UHGV virus genome: UHGV-0279745 | Reading direction: 5' to 3' (one strand) | Origin: a virus | DNA: 64,000 nucleotides | Shown here: piece by piece, positions 17,462 through 44,221 of the stretch | Position numbering within the stretch: the first letter of the stretch is position 1 | Layout: each line of letters opens with the position of its first letter | The notes under the pieces: generated by a model | Databases searched by the model: none | The model's input: only the letters and a program-made list of their open reading frames with translations | What the model was told of the DNA's origin: nothing | Translations under genes and position numbers: made by a program

Positions 17462-17940
17462 ATCAATTTTCTGTTGATGCAGAAAGACTAGCGTCATTTA
17501 AAGAACGTGCTCAGTCTGCAGCCAAAAACGGCTATATCGAAAAAGGGGTTCGTGACACCTGCAAGCTAATCAACGACCATCCACACTTGGCGACAATGTG
17601 GAGTTGTGAAGGTCACGGTATGTATTCTAAGTCACCTGGAAATCTGCATATCGTTTTTGCAACAGACGCTATTGGAAGTCAGATTCCAATGCAGGTTATG
17701 ACTGAACTTGCAAAATCGGATTTACCGAATTTCTGGAATCTTAGTTTGTGTCGTCTTTATATACCAGATGCATACACGGATTTGGTATATCTTGAACCTG
17801 ACTATGGATTAAATACCGATGACACTTCTTACTGGTCTTGGAAAATCGGATACATGTGCTTGATTAATCGTCCCGCGTTAATTGAGGCACGTCAAGCTCT
17901 TTATAAAGCATTTCACACAGTATTAGTTGAGAATAAATAA
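17458..17940 (+). CDS. hypothetical protein
   Basis: 160-aa ORF; ATGA overlap. Confidence 0.5.
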   Translation: MNQFSVDAERLASFKERAQSAAKNGYIEKGVRDTCKLINDHPHLATMWSCEGHGMYSKSPGNLHIVFATDAIGSQIPMQVMTELAKSDLPNFWNLSLCRLYIPDAYTDLVYLEPDYGLNTDDTSYWSWKIGYMCLINRPALIEARQALYKAFHTVLVENK

Positions 17941-18632
17941 TGGCTACCAAACAAAAGAAACCGCGTAACAAAAAGTATAACCCGAAAGCCGCTGCTAACC
18001 GTACTGCGCACACCATTGCTGAAAATGCGCTAAACCGCATTACTTTCGTCGGTAGCTCTATTCGTCCTATCGGTCCGTACGCAGGTCGTGGTTTCCAGTT
18101 TACAACGTCACCGCGTATGCGCATGGCGGCTACCGACATGTTAATCGGTGGTTTGTTTGACGAGCCACGTAACTGGAAACTGTGGGTTGCGCATCTGTAC
18201 GAAACAGATAATGGTGTGCAAGCAGAAACCATCGTGGCAACGCTTGACGACTACACGTTAAGTGATTTCTGTCAACACGGTGACAAGATCATCAAGTCGC
18301 TACGTGAGACGGAAGAAAACTACTTCGGTTATGCTTTCGTTGCTGCACCTAACGAACGTTATGATTTTGACCAGGGAGAAGAACGCTTACTGGAAAACTT
18401 CATGCATTCGGGTCTGTTAGACAAATCCTTACACTTACCTGAAGAAGAACTGATGGTTACACGTAAGGACATGGTAACGTTGTTGTTAGCCGATCGTGGT
18501 CGTTTTGATATTACCGAATCACATGTACGTAAAGTACAGAAACTTGTGGATAAGGTAGACGAAACTGACCTGGACACTAACGAAGTCGCATCCCGTATCC
18601 AATCGGTAGTGAATCAGGAAGAGGATTACTAA
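17940..18632 (+). CDS. hypothetical protein (basic N-terminus)
   Basis: 230-aa ORF; TAATG overlap. Confidence 0.55.
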   Translation: MATKQKKPRNKKYNPKAAANRTAHTIAENALNRITFVGSSIRPIGPYAGRGFQFTTSPRMRMAATDMLIGGLFDEPRNWKLWVAHLYETDNGVQAETIVATLDDYTLSDFCQHGDKIIKSLRETEENYFGYAFVAAPNERYDFDQGEERLLENFMHSGLLDKSLHLPEEELMVTRKDMVTLLLADRGRFDITESHVRKVQKLVDKVDETDLDTNEVASRIQSVVNQEEDY

Positions 18633-19960: not shown

Positions 19961-20005
19961 CCTACCGCCCGATTCTATGGGCGGTAGGTGTTTTTATTTT
20001 TTTTG
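19961..20005 (+). terminator. rho-independent terminator
   Basis: CCTACCGCCC-gattctat-GGGCGGTAGG followed by a T-run. Confidence 0.75.
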
Positions 20006-20020
20006 ATCTGGGAGGTTTTA

Positions 20021-20581
20021 GTGACTACTTACGTACCTGATTTAAGTCTGGCCTCAGCCGAATTAGTGGTCGCTTTAATCAACCACGATAACGGTTCACG
20101 GTTGTCTCTAAACGAAATCCGTATTAGCAACACTATGGCAAACCCGTCCCCGACCACTTCGCGTCGTAACACACTGACAGAGATTACAAAAATCAGGAAA
20201 CCTGATGGTGCTTCTGTGGTTGTTTATTACGACCGTCTGGATGCGGACGAAGTGTTAGCGTCTGAACCTATTTTGATTTCGTTAGACGGTACTGAAGACA
20301 ACCTTCGTGACATTTTAGGTGTTGTAAATGAATTCTGCGGAACGAACTTACAACCCGAAGATTTACGTGCTGCAGATATCACCTTAGGTAACGAACCCAT
20401 TGCTGTTAACGTTGCTGACGATTCTCCTGCGTGGATGAATGCGTTCATGGTAACGTTATTCGATACAACAGAACGAGCATTAGCAAACGAAGATGATGCG
20501 ATCTTCTGTATTGGTGATGATGCCGTTCTTACCTTTGAGGTTCCAGATGACGATTCAGCTGAAGAAAACCCGGCTACATGA
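20021..20581 (+). CDS. family-X paralog (fibre-associated hypothetical protein)
   Basis: Start placed at GTG 20021, 5 nt after GGAGG; the ORF-track start 19988 lies in the terminator. N-terminus VPDLSLASAELVVALINHD and ...VVVYYDRL match five other paralogs. Confidence 0.55.
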   Translation: MTTYVPDLSLASAELVVALINHDNGSRLSLNEIRISNTMANPSPTTSRRNTLTEITKIRKPDGASVVVYYDRLDADEVLASEPILISLDGTEDNLRDILGVVNEFCGTNLQPEDLRAADITLGNEPIAVNVADDSPAWMNAFMVTLFDTTERALANEDDAIFCIGDDAVLTFEVPDDDSAEENPAT

Positions 20582-26773: not shown

Positions 26774-27289
26774 ATGGGACAATTCGTGCCGGATTTGTCA
26801 CTGACCTCACCTAACATGGTTATTTCGTTGATCAATCACGACCTTCAGCTTGATCTGCAAGAAACCGATGTTGAGTTTAGCGAACTAAAATCTAGCGACG
26901 CGATGGATCGTGATACCACTGCTGTTGTAAAGATCAAACGTCCGGGCAGCAGAACGTTACAGATCTATTACAATCGTTTAACCGCAGAGCGGTGGTTAAA
27001 CCAGCAACCTATTCTGGTAAAGGTCACCGGTAATGGCTTTACTACGCACGATCTGATCGACGGAATTAATGCGGTCTGTGGTAGTAATTTACAAGCCGAC
27101 GATCTTACCGACGAATCATTTACCGTAGGGAGGGACGCTGTAACATTACAAGTTTCACCCAACTCGCTAGGTTATAAAGGCCAATTCTCCGTTCTGGTTT
27201 TCGGTAACGATGAAGAAGCCGCAGTAACAAAAGACAACGATTTGATCGTTACTGCAGATAATCGTGTCTTAACATTCGGAGGTCACTAA
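26774..27289 (+). CDS. family-X paralog (fibre-associated hypothetical protein)
   Basis: MGQFVPDLSLTSPNMVISLINHD and ...LQIYYNRL are paralogous to 20021-20581; precedes the second fibre-like gene. Confidence 0.55.
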   Translation: MGQFVPDLSLTSPNMVISLINHDLQLDLQETDVEFSELKSSDAMDRDTTAVVKIKRPGSRTLQIYYNRLTAERWLNQQPILVKVTGNGFTTHDLIDGINAVCGSNLQADDLTDESFTVGRDAVTLQVSPNSLGYKGQFSVLVFGNDEEAAVTKDNDLIVTADNRVLTFGGH

Positions 27290-35007: not shown

Positions 35008-35439
35008 ATGTTTTTCGTACTAAAAGATGAAATCCGTAACTACATTCGTAACAACCCGATTGCTCTGGGCGTTTTAGCAGGTTTCTGTCGTCCAAATACT
35101 GATTTCGATTTAGTTAAGTTAGAAGAATATCAGGAAATTGTGAATACTAACTACTTGCACATCTGTAGCTGGGGTAAACGCCCTCGCGAAGAGTACCCTG
35201 TAGGTGAGTTAGGTGACACTATGCACCGTGACCAGAATCTGATGCACGAATTCGTTGAATACACACTGGAAAATCTTAACTATCCGCTTCTGGTCGACAC
35301 TGTACCAGAAATGGTTGACGAGTGGTTAAGTCGTGTTTACAATGATCCTACTGCCAGCACCCTGCTGAGCCAGATGTCGCAAACTTCTCGCGATATCGAC
35401 ACCCGCACGCTGATGTACTTAGCACACAACGTTCGTTAA
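35008..35439 (+). CDS. hypothetical protein (paralog of 33714-34142)
   Basis: Paralogous N- and C-terminal motifs; terminator follows. Confidence 0.5.
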   Translation: MFFVLKDEIRNYIRNNPIALGVLAGFCRPNTDFDLVKLEEYQEIVNTNYLHICSWGKRPREEYPVGELGDTMHRDQNLMHEFVEYTLENLNYPLLVDTVPEMVDEWLSRVYNDPTASTLLSQMSQTSRDIDTRTLMYLAHNVR

Positions 35440-35605: not shown

Positions 35606-36454
35606 ATGTCTCTTACGTCAAAACAGAAACTGCTAAAACTCATCAACACTGAAAACAATATTGTTCCGCCATTGACCTTCAGTGATGTTGATATCGGCGA
35701 ACCTACTGGTACTAGGGTTGATACCCAGGTGGTTCTGACTTCTAAACTCAAAGGCGATGAGTCTACTACTTTAACAGTGACTTACCATCGTCGTAATTTG
35801 CCCGAATACCTAACAGGTGAATTGGTATTCGGTAACGACGGTGTTGTAACCGCTACAGATTTGCTTAATGCAATCAACGCAAAATACGATTTAAATATCC
35901 TGCCGTCGGATATCGTTGATGCGAAAGTTGAAGGTGAAACCCATCAGCTTACCGCTAACGAGAAATCCTACGAATGGTGTGGCGAGGTGACACTTACGCT
36001 ACGCGATCCTATTGATCTGGCTAAACTGTTACCTGTTACTCAATTAGAAAACCTGGTAGAGTATCCGTCCACTAAGAAAGGTAACGCAGCGGTTTATTCT
36101 TATCCAATTGACTTCACCGCAGAAAAAGATTACCTCGATCCGATTACCATTAACGACACTGTCGACCTGGCTGAGTTAGCCACTAAACTGGTCAACGTCG
36201 TTGATGAGAAATGGGTAAGCGTACCTAAAAACGCTGCTAATAACCTCTACGGTGCTAAGGTTATCTACGATGGCCCTACCGCAGGTTACGAAGGTGCAAA
36301 TACGAAGTACACGCGTGTGCTGGTACTCGCACTCAGTGGACTGTGTGCTAACCTGACCGGTAATCTGTTAATCCACTTTAACGGTACCGATCGTCCGAAG
36401 TCGAAGATTGAATTAGCTAAAACTAATTCGGTCTTACCGGGATTCTTAGATTAA
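35606..36454 (+). CDS. family-X paralog (putative virion-associated protein)
   Basis: N-terminal KLINTENN...LTFSDVDIGEP...TLTVTYHRRNL matches the family-X signature. Confidence 0.55.
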   Translation: MSLTSKQKLLKLINTENNIVPPLTFSDVDIGEPTGTRVDTQVVLTSKLKGDESTTLTVTYHRRNLPEYLTGELVFGNDGVVTATDLLNAINAKYDLNILPSDIVDAKVEGETHQLTANEKSYEWCGEVTLTLRDPIDLAKLLPVTQLENLVEYPSTKKGNAAVYSYPIDFTAEKDYLDPITINDTVDLAELATKLVNVVDEKWVSVPKNAANNLYGAKVIYDGPTAGYEGANTKYTRVLVLALSGLCANLTGNLLIHFNGTDRPKSKIELAKTNSVLPGFLD

Positions 36455-36467
36455 GAGGATTACAGTA

Positions 36468-36944
36468 ATGACCAGTCAAGAAACTATCTTCGACCTTATT
36501 AAAAAGGCTAACCCAGACGCTGAGCTTGACACCGCCAAAGTTACATTGGGTGAGCCCGTCGTAAGTACCGGTGCGTACAACACCGAAGTTACGGTTGCGT
36601 CAATTAAGAATCTCGGTTATGCTAATAAGCAAACGTTCCAGTATAACCGCATCGATGCAGGTTTGTATTTCCTCAACGTATTGCCGAAACTGTTAGTTGA
36701 ATCAGCCACCACGACTGCGGACCTGTTGCCTGTAATTAACGAACAATATGGCTTAACCCTTACTGAAGACGACGTATGGGTAGAGCAGGTTGGTGAGTTA
36801 CCGCTGGACGGCAGCGCAATCGAGCACGGCATTTTCTTCCGTCCTGAGTGCCTAACCTGGGTCGGTGGTTTTACAGTGCGCGTTGCGCGTAAACCGACTG
36901 TTGAAACACCGCCAGCTAATCCATCGCGCGCTAAGAAGAAATAA
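36468..36944 (+). CDS. family-X paralog (putative virion-associated protein)
   Basis: DLIKKANPDAELDTAKVTLGEP...TFQYNRID matches the family-X signature; terminator follows. Confidence 0.55.
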   Translation: MTSQETIFDLIKKANPDAELDTAKVTLGEPVVSTGAYNTEVTVASIKNLGYANKQTFQYNRIDAGLYFLNVLPKLLVESATTTADLLPVINEQYGLTLTEDDVWVEQVGELPLDGSAIEHGIFFRPECLTWVGGFTVRVARKPTVETPPANPSRAKKK

Positions 36945-38954: not shown

Positions 38955-38990
38955 TACCCTACTCCTTATCGGGAGTAGGGTAGTTTTTAT
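38955..38990. terminator. terminator between convergent genes
   Basis: ACCCTACTCC-ttatcg-GGAGTAGGGT followed by TTTTTAT on the plus strand. Confidence 0.65.
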
Positions 38991-39469
38991 TATTCCGCAG
39001 GATGGAGCATTGTTCCGGTGTCAGGAGCTACACCTTCTTTACAGTGGAAGAAAGTAATGCCTTTACCATCACCCGTTTTATATTCTAAAGTAGAATACGC
39101 AAACGTTGGTGTTTTTGAAAGTAACCCATTTACACGGTAGTAACGTTGCCCCGTGATAGGATCGATATTTCCATTAACTTTACCTAATAAATCTTTATAA
39201 AGTTGGGGTGACTCAATCTTACCATTTGGCCAAGTGGCTACCCAGTTAGCGCCAGTATCGATCACAGTTACTGAACCTAACATTAGGTTAGTCGAACTAA
39301 CGACAGGTTTGTAATTTACAAAATCCTGCTCTACACCCATACAGGTGTAAATAACCATGTCGTGTGGCTCTACGGGTACAGTTGAGAATTGGCCGTTAGC
39401 GGTGGGTTGTAAAGCACATCCTGCTAATGAAAAAACACCAACCATAGCGATAAGAAAACGTTTTAGCAT
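38990..39469 (-). CDS. lipoprotein (signal peptide with lipobox LAGC)
   Basis: MLKRFLIAMVGVFSLAGCALQP has a type II signal peptide/lipobox; start trimmed from the ORF-track 39529 to ATG 39469. Confidence 0.6.
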   Translation of the reverse strand: MLKRFLIAMVGVFSLAGCALQPTANGQFSTVPVEPHDMVIYTCMGVEQDFVNYKPVVSSTNLMLGSVTVIDTGANWVATWPNGKIESPQLYKDLLGKVNGNIDPITGQRYYRVNGLLSKTPTFAYSTLEYKTGDGKGITFFHCKEGVAPDTGTMLHPAE

Positions 39470-39531
39470 GTTTTCACCTTTTATAAAAAAGTTAAAAATA
39501 ATAATTTTACAGACGACCCTTACTGCCATCT

Positions 39532-39560
39532 GTCATAACTATTAAAACCACTTCTATAAT
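39532..39560 (+). promoter_or_regulatory. putative sigma70-like -10 element upstream of high-expression family-X gene
   Basis: TATAAT at 39555-39560, 48 nt upstream of ATG 39608, in a divergent intergenic region; -35 match is weak (GTCATA). Confidence 0.3.
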
Positions 39561-39607
39561 CCGAACAATACTATGCAATCCACCCTGCCACACACGAGGT
39601 AAAAACG

Positions 39608-40144
39608 ATGGCTAAAGCTTTCAATCTGCAGCTCATTGAAGCTGTTAAAGCTAAAAACCCAGACACTGCGTCTAAACTGACCGTAGAAGACGTTGATTTT
39701 GGCGCTGTTGCTGCGTTCAGCGGCAAATCTGGACGTAATACTAAAATTACGCTGACTGCAAAAGAAAAAAGTGCTAACTTTACCGGCAGCAAAGAATTCC
39801 ATTATATCCGTCTGGCATCCCAAGACCTGATCGGTGCTAAAGCTTACCAGCAGGAAGGTAGCCTCGAACTGGAAAACGCTGCCATTGTAGCCAAACTGAA
39901 CGAAGAGATGGTTACTAAAGGTTATGTAGATGACGCGTTTGCAGAAGGCGAACTCACCATCGAAAAATCTGATGGCGAAAGCGGTGCTAAAGTTTACACC
40001 GTTAAAGTAAACGATGCGCACATCAAATTCTTAGCCGGTACCATTGCCACCTTCACCTATACCAACCCGGTTCCTCCGAAGGTAGCTCTGAGCGGCCTGG
40101 AAGGTGAACTGGATAGCTTCACCGCTCCGGGTATCGGGGGCTAA
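39608..40144 (+). CDS. family-X paralog with high-expression codon usage (putative abundant virion protein)
   Basis: Family signature (TKITLTA...FHYIRL); strongly biased codon choice (CTG, CCG, GGT/GGC, CGT, AAA, GAA) unlike neighbours. Confidence 0.65.
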   Translation: MAKAFNLQLIEAVKAKNPDTASKLTVEDVDFGAVAAFSGKSGRNTKITLTAKEKSANFTGSKEFHYIRLASQDLIGAKAYQQEGSLELENAAIVAKLNEEMVTKGYVDDAFAEGELTIEKSDGESGAKVYTVKVNDAHIKFLAGTIATFTYTNPVPPKVALSGLEGELDSFTAPGIGG

Positions 40145-40214
40145 GTAAGTTAAATCGGGGAGGGGGTAACCTCCCCGATATTTCTTTAACTCGTACTATT
40201 AAGGATTTAAGATA

Positions 40215-40745
40215 ATGGCAGCTACTAACCAGATGATGTTGGTCGCGCTTTATAATGCTGCTAACACTGAGCTACCACATCAGATTACTGATAAAGAAGT
40301 GTCCTTTGGTCTCCCTACTGCGCTGGAAGGCGAAGGTAAGAATACCAAAGTTACCATGACTGCACTGCCGGGTTCTGAGAATTTCAAAGGCGCAATCGAA
40401 CTGAAATACGATCGTCTGGAGCCGGGTGTTGTAGGTCGTATTGAGCTAACTGACGATCTGTCTCGCTGGGTTCAAGAAAATGAACTGCGCGCTTGGTTAC
40501 AATATTACATCAACAAAGTAAAACCTGACGACGCTATCGCACCAGCTGACGTTGTGTACAACACCGAAGACCAGAAAGACGAACATGAAAACGTCACTCT
40601 GCGTACCGTGACGTGCACCGTTACTGAAAGAAACCTCCGTTATAAACCAGGTGTAATGGCAACTTTCGTAATTACGCCGAAAGTTGTTGATAATCGTATT
40701 GACCTGGCCACCACCAACGGCGAGCTGGACGGTTTTACGTCCTAA
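40215..40745 (+). CDS. family-X paralog with high-expression codon usage (putative abundant virion protein)
   Basis: Family signature (TKVTMTAL...LKYDRL); similar codon bias; bidirectional terminator follows. Confidence 0.65.
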   Translation: MAATNQMMLVALYNAANTELPHQITDKEVSFGLPTALEGEGKNTKVTMTALPGSENFKGAIELKYDRLEPGVVGRIELTDDLSRWVQENELRAWLQYYINKVKPDDAIAPADVVYNTEDQKDEHENVTLRTVTCTVTERNLRYKPGVMATFVITPKVVDNRIDLATTNGELDGFTS

Positions 40746-40801
40746 GAAAAAATAAAAATACCTACCTCCTATTACGGGAGGTAGGTATACTATTTTTTTT
40801 C
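40746..40801. terminator. bidirectional rho-independent terminator
   Basis: TACCTACCTCC-tattacg-GGAGGTAGGTA flanked by an A-run (left) and T-run (right), between convergent genes. Confidence 0.8.
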
Positions 40802-40809
40802 GCTGTCGA

Positions 40810-41481
40810 TTACAGCCCTTGCTCTAACGCAAACGCTTTTATCGAATCGTAATCACGTGCTTCAGCCCAAGCCCTGACTTCTCTTTTCTGCTCAGACATT
40901 GCGTGGTGTAGTTTTTGATCGCGCTCAACGATTGCTGCCAGCAACGTCTTGCACTGTTCTAACGTAAACGGTTCGATACGGGTGTTGTTAGCCGTTAACC
41001 AATACGCTGGCGCAGTTTCTGACTGGATATAACGACTCAGTGCTACCTGTGACTTCTCATCTGCCTGGAAAGTGAAATCACCTACCTGAATCTCAGCATA
41101 GCGTGCATCCTGATAACGGAATTCCAAAGCGCTTAGAATTTTCTGAACATCGGTAAAGATGTACCGCACCGTGGAACGTAAACCTGTACGAATTTCTTCC
41201 AGGTCAATCCCCAACGTGTCGTTAACAAAGTCTTTCGCTTTCTGTAGCGTAAACCGTGCTTCGATTTCAGACATGTCGTAGTTACGCATTTGTTCCAATG
41301 CTTCGCGATCAGACATCCCATCAATCAACTTATAGTGCAGTAACGCACAAAACCCTGTACGGCCGTGATCTTCGCTACCGATTTTCTCCATGTAGTTACC
41401 ATGACGATCAATCGGTAAATCGTGCGCAAAATAACGGCGACGGATTTCTTCTTTCGTTAAGCCTTCACCAGTAGCAGACAT
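40810..41481 (-). CDS. hypothetical protein (last gene of rSAM-containing operon)
   Basis: 223-aa ORF overlapping the upstream gene end by 25 nt. Confidence 0.55.
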   Translation of the reverse strand: MSATGEGLTKEEIRRRYFAHDLPIDRHGNYMEKIGSEDHGRTGFCALLHYKLIDGMSDREALEQMRNYDMSEIEARFTLQKAKDFVNDTLGIDLEEIRTGLRSTVRYIFTDVQKILSALEFRYQDARYAEIQVGDFTFQADEKSQVALSRYIQSETAPAYWLTANNTRIEPFTLEQCKTLLAAIVERDQKLHHAMSEQKREVRAWAEARDYDSIKAFALEQGL

Positions 41482-42029
41482 TCATCGTCTCCTTTAATCA
41501 ACCCTAATTCGATTAACAGTTCAAAATCGATATGACGGAATCTTGTGTCGAAGTCCGATTCCCAATCGATACGGATACCCTGGCATTCTTCTGGCGTTAG
41601 CTCAGGAAAAATCACGCTATTAAATTTCTCCCGCTCATCGTAAAACCCATCAATCGGTGAGTTCGGGTTACGTGTTGCGAAGATAGTAATGCCGGGGAAG
41701 GACAATGCCAACACAGTGATAGATTCTGCGCTGGGTTCGCTTAAAGAGCGGCGTAGAAACGCAATTTTGTGACGTGGGAAATCCAATACCCGTTCTTCAA
41801 ACCCTGGGTTACGTTTTTCAATTTCCGCGACCGACAGGTCAGTAAGTTCGGTGCAGTACATTGGGATGATTACAGTCACACCGTGACGAATCAGCAAGCG
41901 TTTTACGTCATCGGTGAAATCTTCACCGTTAATCACCACATAACAACCAAATAGCTTACTGTTTTCCAGAAACTTATCCAGAAGTCGAATTCTACGCTTC
42001 GTAATATTGTTGATCAGAATTGGTTTCAT
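41457..42029 (-). CDS. hypothetical protein (rSAM-operon accessory)
   Basis: 190-aa ORF; start overlaps the 3' end of the radical SAM gene. Confidence 0.5.
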   Translation of the reverse strand: MKPILINNITKRRIRLLDKFLENSKLFGCYVVINGEDFTDDVKRLLIRHGVTVIIPMYCTELTDLSVAEIEKRNPGFEERVLDFPRHKIAFLRRSLSEPSAESITVLALSFPGITIFATRNPNSPIDGFYDEREKFNSVIFPELTPEECQGIRIDWESDFDTRFRHIDFELLIELGLIKGDDECLLLVKA

Positions 42030-43314
42030 CTTTGGCTTCTCTTAATAATTTTTCCTTTTGGGCACGTTCACGAACACAGCGTGGGCAATAACACATGCTC
42101 GTGTCGTGGAACGCTTTTGCTGACGTCGTACCCATCTTCTGTTTCCAGTATTCCGCCACCATCAGTTTCGCTGTCGTCCAGCCACACTGACGTCGTTCAG
42201 CGTGATACGCTTTACGGTCTTCTAACGTTCCTTCCCCGTTCTCGTAAGAAGCCGCCGCGCAGCTACCACAAGCGTGTTTCATCGGACAACCTAAACAGGT
42301 CTCTGGGTAGTTGGTATATTGCGTTTGAATCTCTTCTAACAATTTACCGTTGTCCAGACTGACGAATTCCCGACCTACCAACTCAAACACCGCAGAACGC
42401 GACGTTACCGTTGACATAAAGCGGTTACAGCCAAAGATCTTACGGTCAAATCCTAAGCACGTCATGTGCGTTAACGTCCCACAGAACGGACGTAAGCGTT
42501 CTGGGTTCAGCCGTACGGTGTCATTATACAGTAACTGGTCACGCCAGTTCGGTTCCCAAATCGTATCGAAATCCAACCCTTCTGGAATGATGTGCGATAA
42601 GATATTACGTGGGTTGGTGTGTAATCCTTTCTCAACCCAGTAATCTATCACATCCATCATCTGTAAAGCGATTGACGTCGCCATGCTACGTGGCATAACG
42701 TCTTCGAAAGTTACGTTTCCAGAAATTGTCCCACCGCCAGTAATGTCAATTAATGACTTCATCCCCGCAGCATAGAACGGCAGCGTTTCTAACGTAAAGG
42801 TTGCTTTTACGCCGAGCTCTGCAATGCCAACCTCTTTTAAGTAGTTATAGCCACGTACTGCGGCTTCGTAAGAACCCTGGCGTGTTGTTGTGAATATACG
42901 ATAACGGTCATGGGATTCAGGTAAGCCGTCAATCGAAACCCCAACCGAAAGTTTGTCTTTCCAACGTTCTACAATCTCACGGTTCAACGGACGATCTAAC
43001 AGCGTTCCGTTCGTGGAGATACTAAACATAAACGGTCGGTTGTGTTCTTTACACAACTGCTCAGCGGTTTCAAACGCAGCCAGCAGCAGTTTAGGTTGCA
43101 TGAACGGTTCACCACCGATAATGTCAATAATAACTTCAACATTCGGTTCGTTTTTATCACGTTCAAAACAGGCGTGTAAGAAATCAACAATATCTGCCGC
43201 TTTGTTGTTACGCGGGTACTTACGTTCGTAACAATACTCGCAGTCCAGGTTACACGAAAGGTTGGTTACGATCTGATACGTTAACTGCTTAGGGAATTCA
43301 TTTACTTGACTCAT
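41992..43314 (-). CDS. radical SAM enzyme with C-terminal SPASM-like Cys cluster
   Basis: CNLDCEYC (CxxxCxxC) near the N-terminus, GGEPFM glycine-rich SAM motif, and C-terminal clusters CGTLTHMTC...C and CLGCPMKHACGSC; GAGGGG SD before ATG. Confidence 0.85.
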   Translation of the reverse strand: MSQVNEFPKQLTYQIVTNLSCNLDCEYCYERKYPRNNKAADIVDFLHACFERDKNEPNVEVIIDIIGGEPFMQPKLLLAAFETAEQLCKEHNRPFMFSISTNGTLLDRPLNREIVERWKDKLSVGVSIDGLPESHDRYRIFTTTRQGSYEAAVRGYNYLKEVGIAELGVKATFTLETLPFYAAGMKSLIDITGGGTISGNVTFEDVMPRSMATSIALQMMDVIDYWVEKGLHTNPRNILSHIIPEGLDFDTIWEPNWRDQLLYNDTVRLNPERLRPFCGTLTHMTCLGFDRKIFGCNRFMSTVTSRSAVFELVGREFVSLDNGKLLEEIQTQYTNYPETCLGCPMKHACGSCAAASYENGEGTLEDRKAYHAERRQCGWTTAKLMVAEYWKQKMGTTSAKAFHDTSMCYCPRCVRERAQKEKLLREAKDETNSDQQYYEA

Positions 43315-44221
43315 TTGCCGCCCCTCTATTACGCCCTGCCATCACCACACGACGAATATATTCGTACGCCTCTACACCGATAGAGAAGGCCAGTTGGTTA
43401 CATCCCGATTCCAGAACGTTAGGTGCATTCTGGAGTTGGTGCTCACCACCGTCTGCATTAATCCAAAGACTTTCGCTGCAAACGTTACACCCTTCTTCAA
43501 ACACTTTACTTACTGTAAAGCCGCATTCACGACTATTTACTACATTCAGTCGTTCAATGTTATCCTGAACCTGATAGTAGCCGTAAATAAAGTTCATGAC
43601 GTGGTCGGGCGATAAAGGTTTTGGCATTTTCGCATCTAAGAGTAACGTCATTGCACGGAAACCGTAATGGTAAATCGCGCTGTGCAGCTGAATAATATCT
43701 TCGTGCCAGCGTTTGTCCCCTAAACGGTCCCGTGTCAGGACACCCCAAGTCTGGACATTATCCAGCTCGTAGATCGTTTCCAGTGCTTCGTAACAGCCTT
43801 CGTCAATAAAGCGCATAAACGGGCGCTCAGACGACTTAAACCCATCGATGCTAACGTAGACATTGTCAAACTGTTTTAGCAACGGGAGATGCGATTTACG
43901 CATCTTTAAGCCATTGGTATACAACTGGTGTTTGAGTTCTGGACGAATCACTTTTAATTCGTCAACAAACGCCTCAATTTTACGGGTTGCCAGTAATGGC
44001 TCACCACCCGTCCACTGAATTTCGGTAATGGTTGGATTAGCTTCCAACGCTTCCAAAATTCGTTCACGTTGAAACTCTCGCGGAGAATCTTCACGATTCA
44101 TGTAATAGGCTCCACCGCAGAAGCTACAATCCAGGTTGCACTTGGACGTAGCGACTACGGACAATACGGTGGGTTTATCGTATAAACGATTCGATAACCT
44201 TGGTTCTGCATTGGTTGTCAT
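43298..44221 (-). CDS. radical SAM enzyme (second, shorter; twitch-like C-terminal Cys)
   Basis: CNLDCSFC (CxxxCxxC), GGEPLL motif, C-terminal C-x14-C-x2-C...C; 3' end overlaps the next rSAM start by 17 nt. Confidence 0.85.
   Translation of the reverse strand: MTTNAEPRLSNRLYDKPTVLSVVATSKCNLDCSFCGGAYYMNREDSPREFQRERILEALEANPTITEIQWTGGEPLLATRKIEAFVDELKVIRPELKHQLYTNGLKMRKSHLPLLKQFDNVYVSIDGFKSSERPFMRFIDEGCYEALETIYELDNVQTWGVLTRDRLGDKRWHEDIIQLHSAIYHYGFRAMTLLLDAKMPKPLSPDHVMNFIYGYYQVQDNIERLNVVNSRECGFTVSKVFEEGCNVCSESLWINADGGEHQLQNAPNVLESGCNQLAFSIGVEAYEYIRRVVMAGRNRGAANESSK

What the first reader, a model, noticed from the sequence alone, without database searches (positions are those of the whole stretch)
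39608..40745. Codon-usage island: two adjacent genes with strongly host-optimised codons
Both ORFs use mainly CTG, CCG, GGT/GGC, CGT, AAA, GAA, ATC and TTC, unlike the AT-richer codon choice of neighbouring small genes. They are bounded by a divergent promoter region with a TATAAT hexamer and a strong bidirectional terminator. This fits very highly expressed late proteins such as major virion components.
Basis: seen in the sequence. Interest (0 to 1): 0.5.

Follow-up and report, generated by a model that had tools for sequence, protein, structure and literature searches.

The report
Abundant jumbo-phage virion filament protein genes
The two genes really are a codon-usage island; they encode paralogous small DUF7941 proteins whose homologues are among the most abundant virion proteins of SPN3US-type jumbo phages, so this is a correct but largely already-explained finding.

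Summary
ORFs 39608-40144 (A) and 40215-40745 (B) have the two highest E. coli codon adaptation indices of about 82 ORFs in the window: 0.608 and 0.489, against a mean of 0.278 (sd 0.076). No synonymous resample out of 20,000 reached either value. GC3 is ordinary, so this is not a composition island.

The window is a Seoul-like (SPN3US-type) nucleus-forming jumbo phage. A and B are paralogues (28% identity) of the chimallivirus-specific DUF7941 family.
- They are orthologous to SPN3US gp160, published at more than 300 copies per particle.
- They are homologous over their full length to Goslar gp23, published at about 2,140 copies per virion.
- Both AlphaFold2 models have pLDDT 91.

In a complete relative, in Goslar and in SPN3US, CAI tracks the published abundance.

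The exact TATAAT hexamer is not conserved. A TATG motif, the phiKZ late-promoter consensus, and the leader after it are conserved.

New detail: A is a sharply bounded hypervariable cassette, 46-98% identical among relatives whose flanks are 84-100% identical. Copy number ranges from 1 to 3. The filament function and the position in the virion are inferred, not shown.

The parts
39470..39607 (.). Divergent intergenic control region between the minus-strand lipoprotein-like gene and gene A
   Evidence: The upstream half is AT-rich and variable among relatives. The last ~36 nt are almost invariant in 9 loci.
39555..39560 (+).
   Evidence: Present in the window. It reads TAAAAT in five relatives and is lost in L012. 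The sigma-70 scan reported no -35/-10 pair here.
39572..39575 (+). Conserved TATG: candidate late promoter and transcription start of the phiKZ non-virion RNA polymerase type
   Evidence: Invariant in all 9 aligned loci, within TATGCAATCCA. It matches the 4-bp phiKZ late-promoter consensus, whose last G is the start point (PMC12809450). This is a low-information motif and its function is inferred.
39576..39607 (+). Conserved 5' leader of gene A, with Shine-Dalgarno GAGG at 39596-39599
   Evidence: Near-invariant in 9 loci, even where the coding sequence that follows is only 54-64% identical.
39608..40144 (+). Gene A: 178-aa short-form DUF7941 protein. It has the highest CAI in the window, is the orthologue of SPN3US gp160, and is a hypervariable cassette.
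   Evidence: - CAI 0.608.
- Pfam PF25613 at 34.5 bits against a cut-off of 27; PHROG 4862, E 8e-40.
- AF2 pLDDT 91.1.
- Alleles are 46-98% identical among relatives.
40154..40179 (+). Hairpin between A and B with an interrupted T-tract (ATTTCTTTA): candidate partial terminator or attenuator
   Evidence: 10-pair stem with 7 GC pairs. Conserved in 8 of 9 loci, and the ninth has a different hairpin. There is no TATG between it and gene B.
40215..40745 (+). Gene B: 176-aa short-form DUF7941 paralogue of A, with the second-highest CAI and a conserved sequence
   Evidence: - CAI 0.489.
- 28% identical to A, E 2e-17.
- PF25613 at 38.5 bits.
- AF2 pLDDT 91.1, with the same order of secondary-structure elements as A.
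- 91-99% identical among 8 of 9 loci.
40758..40788 (.). Bidirectional intrinsic terminator shared with the convergent DUF4376 gene
   Evidence: 13 pairs on the + strand and 12 on the - strand, with an A-run upstream and a T-run downstream. The stem TACCTACCTCC/GGAGGTAGGTA is invariant in 9 loci while the loop varies.

Best explanation
A and B form a small phage transcription unit. It encodes two paralogous ~19-kDa short-form DUF7941 proteins that are made in very large amounts, and the codon-usage island is the footprint of translational selection on that output.

Likely layout:
- Transcription starts at the conserved TATG (39572-39575), read by the phage's own non-virion RNA polymerase.
- It runs through a conserved leader and gene A.
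- It is partly stopped at a hairpin with a weak T-tract (40154-40179), which would make B less abundant than A.
- It ends at the bidirectional terminator (40758-40788).

Each protein is a globular domain of about 150 residues followed by a C-terminal tail of about 25 residues carrying a near-invariant L-x4-GELDGFT motif. By analogy with Goslar gp22 and gp23, the tail of one protomer docks on the globular domain of the next. This would give head-to-tail flexible filaments that stay associated with the virion, probably anchored through longer DUF7941 paralogues at the peripheral baseplate, and that aid first contact with the host.

Shown here:
- the codon bias and its significance;
- family membership and fold;
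- the match to a solved baseplate protein;
- conservation of the motif and of the regulatory elements;
- the cassette-like hypervariability of A.

Inferred:
- the actual abundance in this phage;
- promoter class and attenuation;
- polymerisation;
- location in the virion;
- a role in adsorption.
For: Codon bias:
- A and B rank 1 and 2 of 82 ORFs, with 0 of 20,000 resamples reaching them. The phage-referenced index agrees.
- The bias holds across alleles. The first copy scores 0.42-0.61 and is the top or joint-top gene in each of the 9 loci.

CAI tracks measured abundance in relatives:
- In p98232 the capsid protein is 0.710, the internal head proteins 0.706 and 0.681, the A orthologue 0.548 (8th of 243) and the sheath 0.459.
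- In Goslar, gp41, gp23 and gp22 rank 1, 2 and 4, against about 2,140 and 580 copies for gp23 and gp22.
- In SPN3US, gp141, gp160 and gp143 rank 1, 3 and 5. Published abundance is high, high and middle respectively.

Family and fold:
- PF25613 scores above its gathering cut-off for both proteins.
- hhalign to Goslar gp23 gives 96.9%, including the C-terminal DGF.
- Both AF2 models have pLDDT 91.1.
- BFVD hits are all jumbo-phage proteins. They include longer proteins annotated as tail fibre or tail protein that contain this fold.
- Representative search: 185 clusters. Some are multi-module proteins with 3-4 tandem copies of the module.

Other support:
- C-terminal motif columns L161, L168 and F171 are invariant, and G166, E167, D169 and T172 are at least 90% conserved.
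- Purified Goslar gp22 forms filaments, and AlphaFold predicts head-to-tail oligomers for gp22 and gp23.
- The TATG, the leader and both hairpins are conserved.
Against: - No expression or proteomic data exist for this phage.
- In SPN3US, gp160 and the rest of paralogue family B were found in tailless particles and assigned to the head. This conflicts with a baseplate-anchored filament.
- The Goslar authors saw no DUF7941 density on their baseplate. Filament formation was shown only for the long form gp22, not for a short form like A or B.
- TATG is only 4 bp, and I did not find it within 90 nt upstream of most other top-CAI genes in p98232.
- A TAnAAT-like element is retained in 8 of 9 loci, so sequence alone does not exclude a host-type -10 element.
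- I could not run a multimer prediction, so tail-to-domain docking is untested for A and B.
Confidence: 0.75

Rival explanations
1. A and B are abundant head proteins, either a capsid-surface decoration or an internal head component, rather than baseplate-anchored filaments. The codon bias has the same cause (high copy number), but the location and role differ.
For: SPN3US gp160, gp141 and the other paralogue family B proteins were detected in particles of a tailless mutant. Copy numbers above 300 'per capsid' were estimated by densitometry on that mutant (PMC5694885). PHROG neighbours 1037, 3589 and 2935 are filed under 'head and packaging'. The Goslar baseplate map shows no DUF7941 density.
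Against: - The only experimentally placed family member, phiKZ gp127, sits in the outer peripheral baseplate. It is the sole strong structural match of the model of A.
- The Goslar composite model of 28 proteins left gp22 and gp23 unmodelled.
- Self-assembling filaments could co-purify with tailless heads, which would reconcile the SPN3US result.
- Longer proteins containing this fold are annotated as tail fibre or tail protein. Goslar DUF7941 proteins carry carbohydrate-binding, glycoside hydrolase or LRR domains. These fit a host-contact role.
Confidence: 0.2
2. The codon-usage island reflects foreign origin (recent horizontal acquisition from a host or another element) or local mutational or compositional bias, not expression level.
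For: Gene A is a sharply bounded cassette whose alleles are exchanged among otherwise near-identical genomes. Recombination does act here.
Against: - GC and GC3 of A and B are within 0.5 sd of the window mean.
- All homologues found by sequence or fold are chimallivirus proteins.
- Every A allele keeps a high CAI despite 46-98% identity.
- The same bias is seen in the distant homologues SPN3US gp160 and Goslar gp23.
- dS of A is depressed relative to its neighbours, as expected under selection on synonymous sites.
Confidence: 0.03
3. A and B are very highly expressed but are non-structural intracellular proteins. Their homologues' presence in virion preparations would then be co-purification of self-assembled filaments.
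For: - Goslar gp22 alone forms long filaments and bundles in vitro, so such material could pellet or band with virions or tailless heads.
- One of the top-CAI genes in p98232 (611 aa, phrog_8316) is not annotated as structural, so high CAI is not limited to genes annotated as virion components.
Against: - Homologues were found in CsCl-purified virions of two different phages, at stoichiometries comparable to or above the tail sheath.
- The phiKZ gp127 N-terminal domain is resolved as an ordered part of the baseplate periphery.
Confidence: 0.07

Closest known systems
Salmonella phage SPN3US gp160 (SPN3US_0160, AEP83993.1), a high-abundance member of 'paralog family B' (Ali et al. 2017, PMC5694885)
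   Same: - Size is similar: 175 aa against 178 and 176.
- It is 44% identical to A and 36% to B in global alignment.
- The neighbourhood is the same: GH108 endolysin, DUF1353, M15-like, minus-strand small gene, gp160, minus-strand DUF4376, radical SAM pair.
- It ends in the same TNGELDGF motif.
- Its CAI is elevated (0.417, 3rd of 59).
- My family HMM hits SPN3US gp138-145, 148, 151, 154, 155 and 160, so DUF7941 covers much of paralogue family B.
   Different: SPN3US has one copy here. The window has two, and relative L013 has three. SPN3US's codon bias is weaker (0.417 against 0.608). The window phage is under 60% identical in protein and has no megablast match in the phage collection.
Escherichia phage Goslar gp23 and gp22, DUF7941 'fibre cloud' proteins (bioRxiv 10.64898/2026.04.21.720040)
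   Same: - It is an adjacent pair of DUF7941 paralogues next to a GH108-type peptidoglycan hydrolase gene.
- gp23 (180 aa) is the short form, like A and B, and aligns over its full length (hhalign 96.9%).
- The pair have the second- and fourth-highest CAI in their 50-kb region, after the capsid protein.
- They are among the most abundant virion proteins.
   Different: - Goslar's pair is one long form (297 aa, with a C-terminal domain) plus one short form, transcribed divergently. The window has two short forms in tandem on one strand.
- Sequence identity is only 23-28%.
- The C-terminal motif in gp23 is ADGF rather than GELDGFT.
- Filament formation was shown only for gp22.
Pseudomonas phage phiKZ gp127 (PDB 9xqd chain 0, outer peripheral baseplate)
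   Different: Identity is 14%. gp127 is a long form of about 290 aa whose linker and C-terminal domain pair with gp126. It is not reported as a very high-copy protein. Foldseek against the PDB did not list it among its top 50 hits, and a sequence-profile search of the PDB found nothing.
Highly expressed phage structural genes with host-adapted codons (general phenomenon; from my own knowledge, e.g. major capsid genes of coliphages)
   Same: Host-preferred synonymous codons are concentrated in the most abundantly made late proteins. Here the major capsid and internal head genes of the relative show the same signature.
   Different: None in principle. The particular family is a poorly understood, chimallivirus-specific one.

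Membership tests
DUF7941 (Pfam PF25613), chimallivirus-specific virion protein family | Significant match to the Pfam model above its gathering score | tested here: met
   A scores 34.5 bits and B 38.5 bits against a cut-off of 27. Only model positions 7-83 of 276 are matched. The precomputed PF25613 annotation is present on nearly all homologues.
DUF7941 (Pfam PF25613), chimallivirus-specific virion protein family | Shared fold with an experimentally solved family member (phiKZ gp127 N-terminal domain) | tested here: met
DUF7941 (Pfam PF25613), chimallivirus-specific virion protein family | Restricted to phiKZ-like nucleus-forming jumbo phages | tested here: met
   - tblastn hits are only to Erwinia, Salmonella, Escherichia, Cronobacter, Enterobacteria and Proteus jumbo phages.
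- The BFVD fold hits that carry a name are all jumbo-phage or uncultured myovirus proteins.
- There is no other PDB fold match.
- Seoul-like phages encode chimallin, according to 10.1101/2024.12.31.630880.
DUF7941 (Pfam PF25613), chimallivirus-specific virion protein family | [quoted passage not shown] | not testable with these tools
   Only monomer prediction was available. The indirect support is a near-invariant C-terminal L-x4-GELDGFT motif and a confidently modelled tail (pLDDT 66-86).
DUF7941 (Pfam PF25613), chimallivirus-specific virion protein family | Presence in purified virions at high copy number | not testable with these tools
   This is known for the homologues SPN3US gp160 and Goslar gp23 and gp22. 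Here there is only the CAI proxy.
Orthologue of SPN3US gp160 | Best reciprocal-type similarity and conserved gene order | tested here: met
   A is 44-46% identical to SPN3US gp160 over more than 92% of its length. The flanking genes are the same in SPN3US, p98232 and seven metagenome or isolate loci.
Translationally selected (highly expressed) gene class | Codon adaptation far above the genome background, not explained by base composition, and shared with known abundant genes of the same genome type | tested here: met
   - Ranks 1 and 2 of 82 ORFs; 0 of 20,000 resamples reach them; GC3 is ordinary.
- The orthologue ranks 8th of 243, alongside the capsid, internal head and tail-tube-adjacent genes.
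- dS is depressed.
Sigma-70 host-type promoter | -35 and -10 hexamers at proper spacing, conserved among relatives | tested here: not met
   The exact TATAAT at 39555-39560 has no reported -35 partner. It changes to TAAAAT in five loci and is lost in one.
phiKZ-type late promoter (non-virion RNA polymerase) | TATG motif overlapping the transcription start, upstream of a late gene | tested here: inconclusive
   TATG at 39572-39575 is invariant in 9 loci and is followed by a conserved leader. The consensus is as described for phiKZ. However, the motif is 4 bp, it was not found within 90 nt upstream of most other top-CAI genes, and the start site was not mapped.
Intrinsic (Rho-independent) terminator | GC-rich hairpin followed by a T-run | tested here: met
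   40758-40788 fits on both strands, and 40154-40179 has an interrupted T-tract. The region holds 8 terminator-like sites against 2.6 +/- 1.6 in shuffles. The stems are conserved in relatives.

The most novel reading that the evidence does not exclude
Gene A is the major, hypervariable subunit of a virion-attached filament. It would be a phage counterpart of antigenically variable pilin or flagellin. A conserved promoter and leader on one side and a conserved terminator on the other act as recombination flanks, so whole alleles are swapped among otherwise near-identical persistent jumbo phages. Copy number varies from 1 to 3. Allele identity would then tune which host surfaces the filament cloud can bind, or let the phage evade host or animal immune recognition of its most abundant exposed protein.
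Probability: 0.2. Interest if true: 0.6.

Novelty: new member of a known kind. Interest (0 to 1): 0.33.

Why it matters
The result shows that a simple codon-adaptation scan picks out the highest-copy virion proteins in nucleus-forming jumbo phages. This includes members of a family, DUF7941 (covering much of SPN3US paralogue family B), whose function and position in the virion are still disputed between 'head' and 'baseplate filament cloud'.

Within that family, CAI separates the few high-copy paralogues from the many low-copy ones. That gives a cheap way to predict stoichiometry in uncultured relatives.

Gene A is a sharply bounded hypervariable cassette, and copy number ranges from 1 to 3, in widely distributed persistent Seoul-like phages. 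This provides natural variants for testing whether these abundant proteins determine adsorption or host range.

Tried and rejected
- Megablast of the region against the phage collection found no match. Relatives were found only by protein search and in E. coli and plasmid records.
- A two-sequence HMM found no further paralogues in the window. A broader family HMM was needed.
- The third homologue search, using the alignment, mostly re-listed close relatives.
- hhalign of the family against the long form Goslar gp22 was weak, at probability 12.5%.
- I looked for a shared extended promoter motif upstream of the 16 top-CAI genes of p98232. No common motif was evident, and a TATG appeared within 90 nt upstream of 6 of the 16.
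- I looked for a flagellin-like pattern of conserved ends and a variable middle in A. Variation is spread fairly evenly: mean column entropy is 0.60, 0.68 and 0.49 bits for residues 1-75, 76-152 and 153-178. I therefore do not claim that pattern.
- dN/dS is 0.13-0.31 for A and 0.10-0.17 for B, against 0.02-0.11 for the neighbours. It stays below 1 and is inflated by depressed dS, so I do not claim positive selection.
- The 155-aa antisense ORF at 39554-40021 was considered and rejected as a gene. Its length varies from 85 to 179 aa among relatives, and it is the expected by-product of avoiding TTA, CTA and TCA codons on the sense strand.
- Horizontal transfer or a compositional-island explanation was rejected, for the reasons given under rival explanations.
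Full report
**What is at the coordinates**

The stated interval holds two same-strand ORFs.
- A is 39608-40144 (178 aa).
- B is 40215-40745 (176 aa).

They are separated from a divergently oriented lipoprotein-like gene by an AT-rich spacer of 138 nt. A convergent DUF4376 gene follows them. A and B are paralogues, 28% identical over their full length (E 2e-17).

**Checking the observation**

- A has CAI 0.608 and B has 0.489. These are the two highest of 82 called ORFs (mean 0.278, sd 0.076).
- Keeping each amino-acid sequence and redrawing synonymous codons from the window's background usage gives 0.318 +/- 0.029 for A and 0.293 +/- 0.028 for B. None of 20,000 draws reached the observed values (z 10.2 and 6.9).
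- The largest single shift is leucine CTG, at 0.63 against 0.17 in the background.
- GC3 is 0.449 and 0.455, against a window mean of 0.431 (sd 0.050). This is not a compositional island.
- A host-independent index uses weights from the major capsid protein and two internal head proteins of a relative. It ranks A and B first and second again, at 0.628 and 0.501 against a mean of 0.284.

The exact TATAAT (39555-39560) and the bidirectional terminator (40758-40788) exist as described. There is also a hairpin between the genes at 40154-40179.

**Which genome this is**

- The region has no near-identical match among deposited phages.
- Protein A finds 62 jumbo phages of Erwinia, Salmonella, Escherichia, Cronobacter and Proteus, all at under 60% identity.
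- Gene order matches Salmonella phage SPN3US gp156-gp164. The SPN3US counterpart of A and B is the single gene gp160.
- Much closer relatives (75-98% protein identity) sit on 220-227 kb contigs in E. coli, Salmonella and Shigella isolate assemblies.
- Two relatives are filed as plasmids: NZ_CP173450.1 in E. coli 98232 and NZ_CP134650.1 in Enterobacter ludwigii.
- These correspond to the 'Seoul-like' persistent, chimallin-encoding jumbo phages described in bioRxiv 10.1101/2024.12.31.630880.

**What the proteins are**

- Both match Pfam DUF7941 (PF25613) above its gathering score, though only over the N-terminal ~75 residues.
- Both match PHROG 4862 strongly, and match 'virion structural protein' PHROGs weakly.
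- An exhaustive profile search finds only 185 clusters at 50% identity. Most are 160-185 aa, and some are larger proteins with 3-4 tandem copies of the module.
- AlphaFold2 models of A and B are confident (pLDDT 91.1 each). They share the same order of secondary-structure elements: one helix, four strands, one long helix, three strands, then a C-terminal tail of about 25 residues.
- Foldseek against the PDB finds nothing significant.
- Against predicted viral structures, all named matches are jumbo-phage or uncultured myovirus proteins. Several are longer proteins annotated as tail fibre or tail protein that contain this fold.
- The A/B family aligns over its full length with Goslar gp23 (hhalign 96.9%, 157 columns), including the C-terminal DGF.
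- Across A-type and B-type sequences, the C-terminal motif L-x4-GELDGFT is invariant or nearly so.

**What is published about the homologues**

SPN3US (Ali et al. 2017, PMC5694885):
- gp160 and gp141 are the two high-abundance members of a 20-member 'paralog family B'.
- Their spectral-count-per-mass values are above that of the tail sheath.
- Densitometry on a tailless mutant gave more than 300 copies each per particle, so the authors regarded the family as head proteins.

Goslar cryo-EM preprint, 2026 (bioRxiv 10.64898/2026.04.21.720040):
- It defines DUF7941 as chimallivirus-specific.
- It estimates about 2,140 copies of gp23 and about 580 copies of gp22 per virion.
- It shows that purified gp22 forms filaments.
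- It fits phiKZ gp126-gp127 into baseplate density.
- It proposes a 'DUF7941 fibre cloud' anchored at the peripheral baseplate.

My family HMM hits SPN3US gp138-145, 148, 151, 154, 155 and 160. Much of paralogue family B is therefore the DUF7941 family, and the two papers disagree about where it sits in the virion.

**Does codon adaptation track abundance in this group?**

Complete relative p98232 (243 ORFs, mean 0.301):

| Gene | CAI | Rank |
|---|---|---|
| Major capsid protein | 0.710 | 1 |
| Internal head protein (PHROG 2497) | 0.706 | 2 |
| Adjacent 421-aa ORF, taken as its paralogue (not scanned) | 0.681 | 3 |
| 611-aa protein (phrog_8316) | 0.648 | 4 |
| A orthologue | 0.548 | 8 |
| Tail sheath | 0.459 | 13 |
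| B orthologue | 0.405 | 25 |

Goslar, first 50 kb:

| Gene | CAI | Rank |
|---|---|---|
| Capsid gp41 | 0.743 | 1 |
| gp23 | 0.659 | 2 |
| gp22 | 0.467 | 4 |

This order matches their measured copy numbers.

SPN3US, 100-150 kb (59 ORFs):

| Gene | CAI | Rank | Published abundance |
|---|---|---|---|
| gp141 | 0.527 | 1 | high |
| gp160 | 0.417 | 3 | high |
| gp143 | 0.390 | 5 | middle |

Within the window, four other DUF7941 paralogues have ordinary to mildly elevated CAI of 0.28-0.37: 35606-36454, 36468-36944, 26774-27289 and 19988-20581.

The inference of very high expression is as well supported as it can be without experiments.

**Regulatory anatomy**

I aligned the region upstream of A from nine loci.
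- The last ~36 nt, TATGCAATCCA(C)CCCTRCCAC..ACGAGGTAAAAA, are nearly invariant, even where the coding sequence that follows is only 54-64% identical.
- The exact TATAAT hexamer is TAAAAT in five loci and is lost in one.
- The sigma-70 scan found no -35/-10 pair at that site.

phiKZ-type phages transcribe late genes with their own non-virion polymerase from a TATG motif whose G is the start point (PMC12809450). I therefore read TATG at 39572-39575 as the likely start. This gives a 32-nt leader with GAGG at 39596-39599. The reading is an inference from a 4-bp motif. I did not find TATG within 90 nt upstream of most other top-CAI genes in p98232, many of which probably sit inside operons.

Between A and B there is no TATG. 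The hairpin there is conserved in 8 of 9 loci but is followed by an interrupted T-tract. A bicistronic unit with partial termination would give more A than B, which agrees with the CAI order. The downstream terminator stem is invariant in all nine loci while its loop varies.

Gene A is a hypervariable cassette.
- In loci whose flanking genes are 84-100% identical to the window, A is only 54-56% identical while B is 94-95%.
- Among nine loci, A alleles are 46-98% identical to each other. B alleles are 91-99% identical, with one divergent exception (L015, 56-58%).
- At the nucleotide level, identity to L012 falls from 90-100% in the flanks to 50-72% inside A. It returns to 96% at 40161.
- One locus (L013) has a third copy, with low CAI (0.29). 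SPN3US has a single copy.
- dN for A against these loci is 10-100 times that of the neighbours. dN/dS stays at 0.13-0.31, and dS is depressed as expected for a codon-constrained gene. I therefore interpret this as exchange of old alleles rather than demonstrated positive selection.
- Variation is spread along the protein rather than confined to a central region.

**Best explanation and rivals**

Rivals:
- The main rival keeps the abundance but places the proteins on or in the head, as the SPN3US tailless-mutant data suggested. Self-assembled filaments co-purifying with heads could reconcile the two views.
- Foreign origin or compositional bias is effectively excluded.
- A purely intracellular role with co-purification is unlikely, but not excluded.

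**Novelty**

- Structural genes with host-adapted codons are a textbook phenomenon.
- The abundance of the SPN3US orthologue was published in 2017.
- The family was characterised in a 2026 preprint.

This is a new member of a known kind. The modest additions are:
- the explicit link between much of paralogue family B and DUF7941;
- CAI as a discriminator of high-copy from low-copy paralogues;
- the conserved TATG, leader and attenuator architecture;
- the cassette-like hypervariability and copy-number variation of the most highly expressed paralogue.

Noticed in passing
whole window; relatives NZ_CP173450.1 (L004-L008) and NZ_CP134650.1: The window belongs to a ~222-kb SPN3US-like jumbo phage lineage. 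Close relatives are deposited as circular 'plasmids' of E. coli and Enterobacter ludwigii and as 220-227 kb contigs in many Salmonella, E. coli and Shigella isolate assemblies. This matches the 'persistent virulent phages' (Seoul-like cluster) of bioRxiv 10.1101/2024.12.31.630880.
   Followed up: partly
window 39608-40144 versus L011-L017 and p98232: Gene A is a sharply bounded allelic cassette. Nucleotide identity drops to 50-72% inside the gene, between flanks of 90-100%. A alleles are 46-98% identical, while gene B is 91-99% identical with one exception (L015).
   Followed up: yes
L013:4208-4738: One relative carries a third tandem short-form DUF7941 gene. It is 33-42% identical to the A-type alleles and 32-37% to the B-type alleles, and it has an ordinary CAI of 0.29. 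SPN3US has only one copy at this position.
   Followed up: partly
window 38990-39469 (-): This is a lipoprotein-like gene (MLKRFLIAMVGVFSLAGC..., with signal peptide and lipobox) transcribed divergently from gene A. It is the positional counterpart of SPN3US gp159 and has no Pfam match. It occurs in two allele classes, about 64-69% and 84-88% identical to the window. Its function is unknown; it lies close to the GH108 endolysin and M15-like genes.
   Followed up: partly
window 40810-41481 (-): This DUF4376 gene is the SPN3US gp161 counterpart, which Ali et al. listed in paralogue family B. It also exists in two sharply different allele classes among relatives: 100% or 65-67% identical. My DUF7941 family HMM did not hit it.
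   Followed up: partly
window 39554-40021 (-): A 155-aa antisense ORF overlaps gene A. Its length varies from 85 to 179 aa in relatives. It is best explained as a by-product of the sense strand avoiding TTA, CTA and TCA codons, not as a gene.
   Followed up: yes
window 35606-36454, 36468-36944, 26774-27289, 19988-20581 (+): There are four more DUF7941 paralogues in the window. The 282-aa one matches the whole Pfam model, so it is a long form like Goslar gp22 and SPN3US gp141. Their CAI values are 0.28-0.37.
   Followed up: partly
window 35008-35439 (+) and 17940-18632 (+): These are the third- and fourth-highest CAI genes in the window (0.423 and 0.414; resampling z 5.5 and 4.6). They have no Pfam match and may be further abundant proteins.
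   Followed up: no
window 41992-43314 (-) and 43298-44221 (-): A pair of radical-SAM protein genes sits immediately downstream. The pair is conserved in SPN3US (gp163 and gp164), Erwinia phage Phobos and p98232. Its role in a virion-gene neighbourhood is unexplained.
   Followed up: no
p98232 137326-139164 (L006:37326-39164, -): A 611-aa protein (phrog_8316, no Pfam match) has the fourth-highest CAI of the relative's genome (0.648). It is not annotated as structural, and I did not identify it. High CAI is thus not limited to genes annotated as virion components.
   Followed up: no
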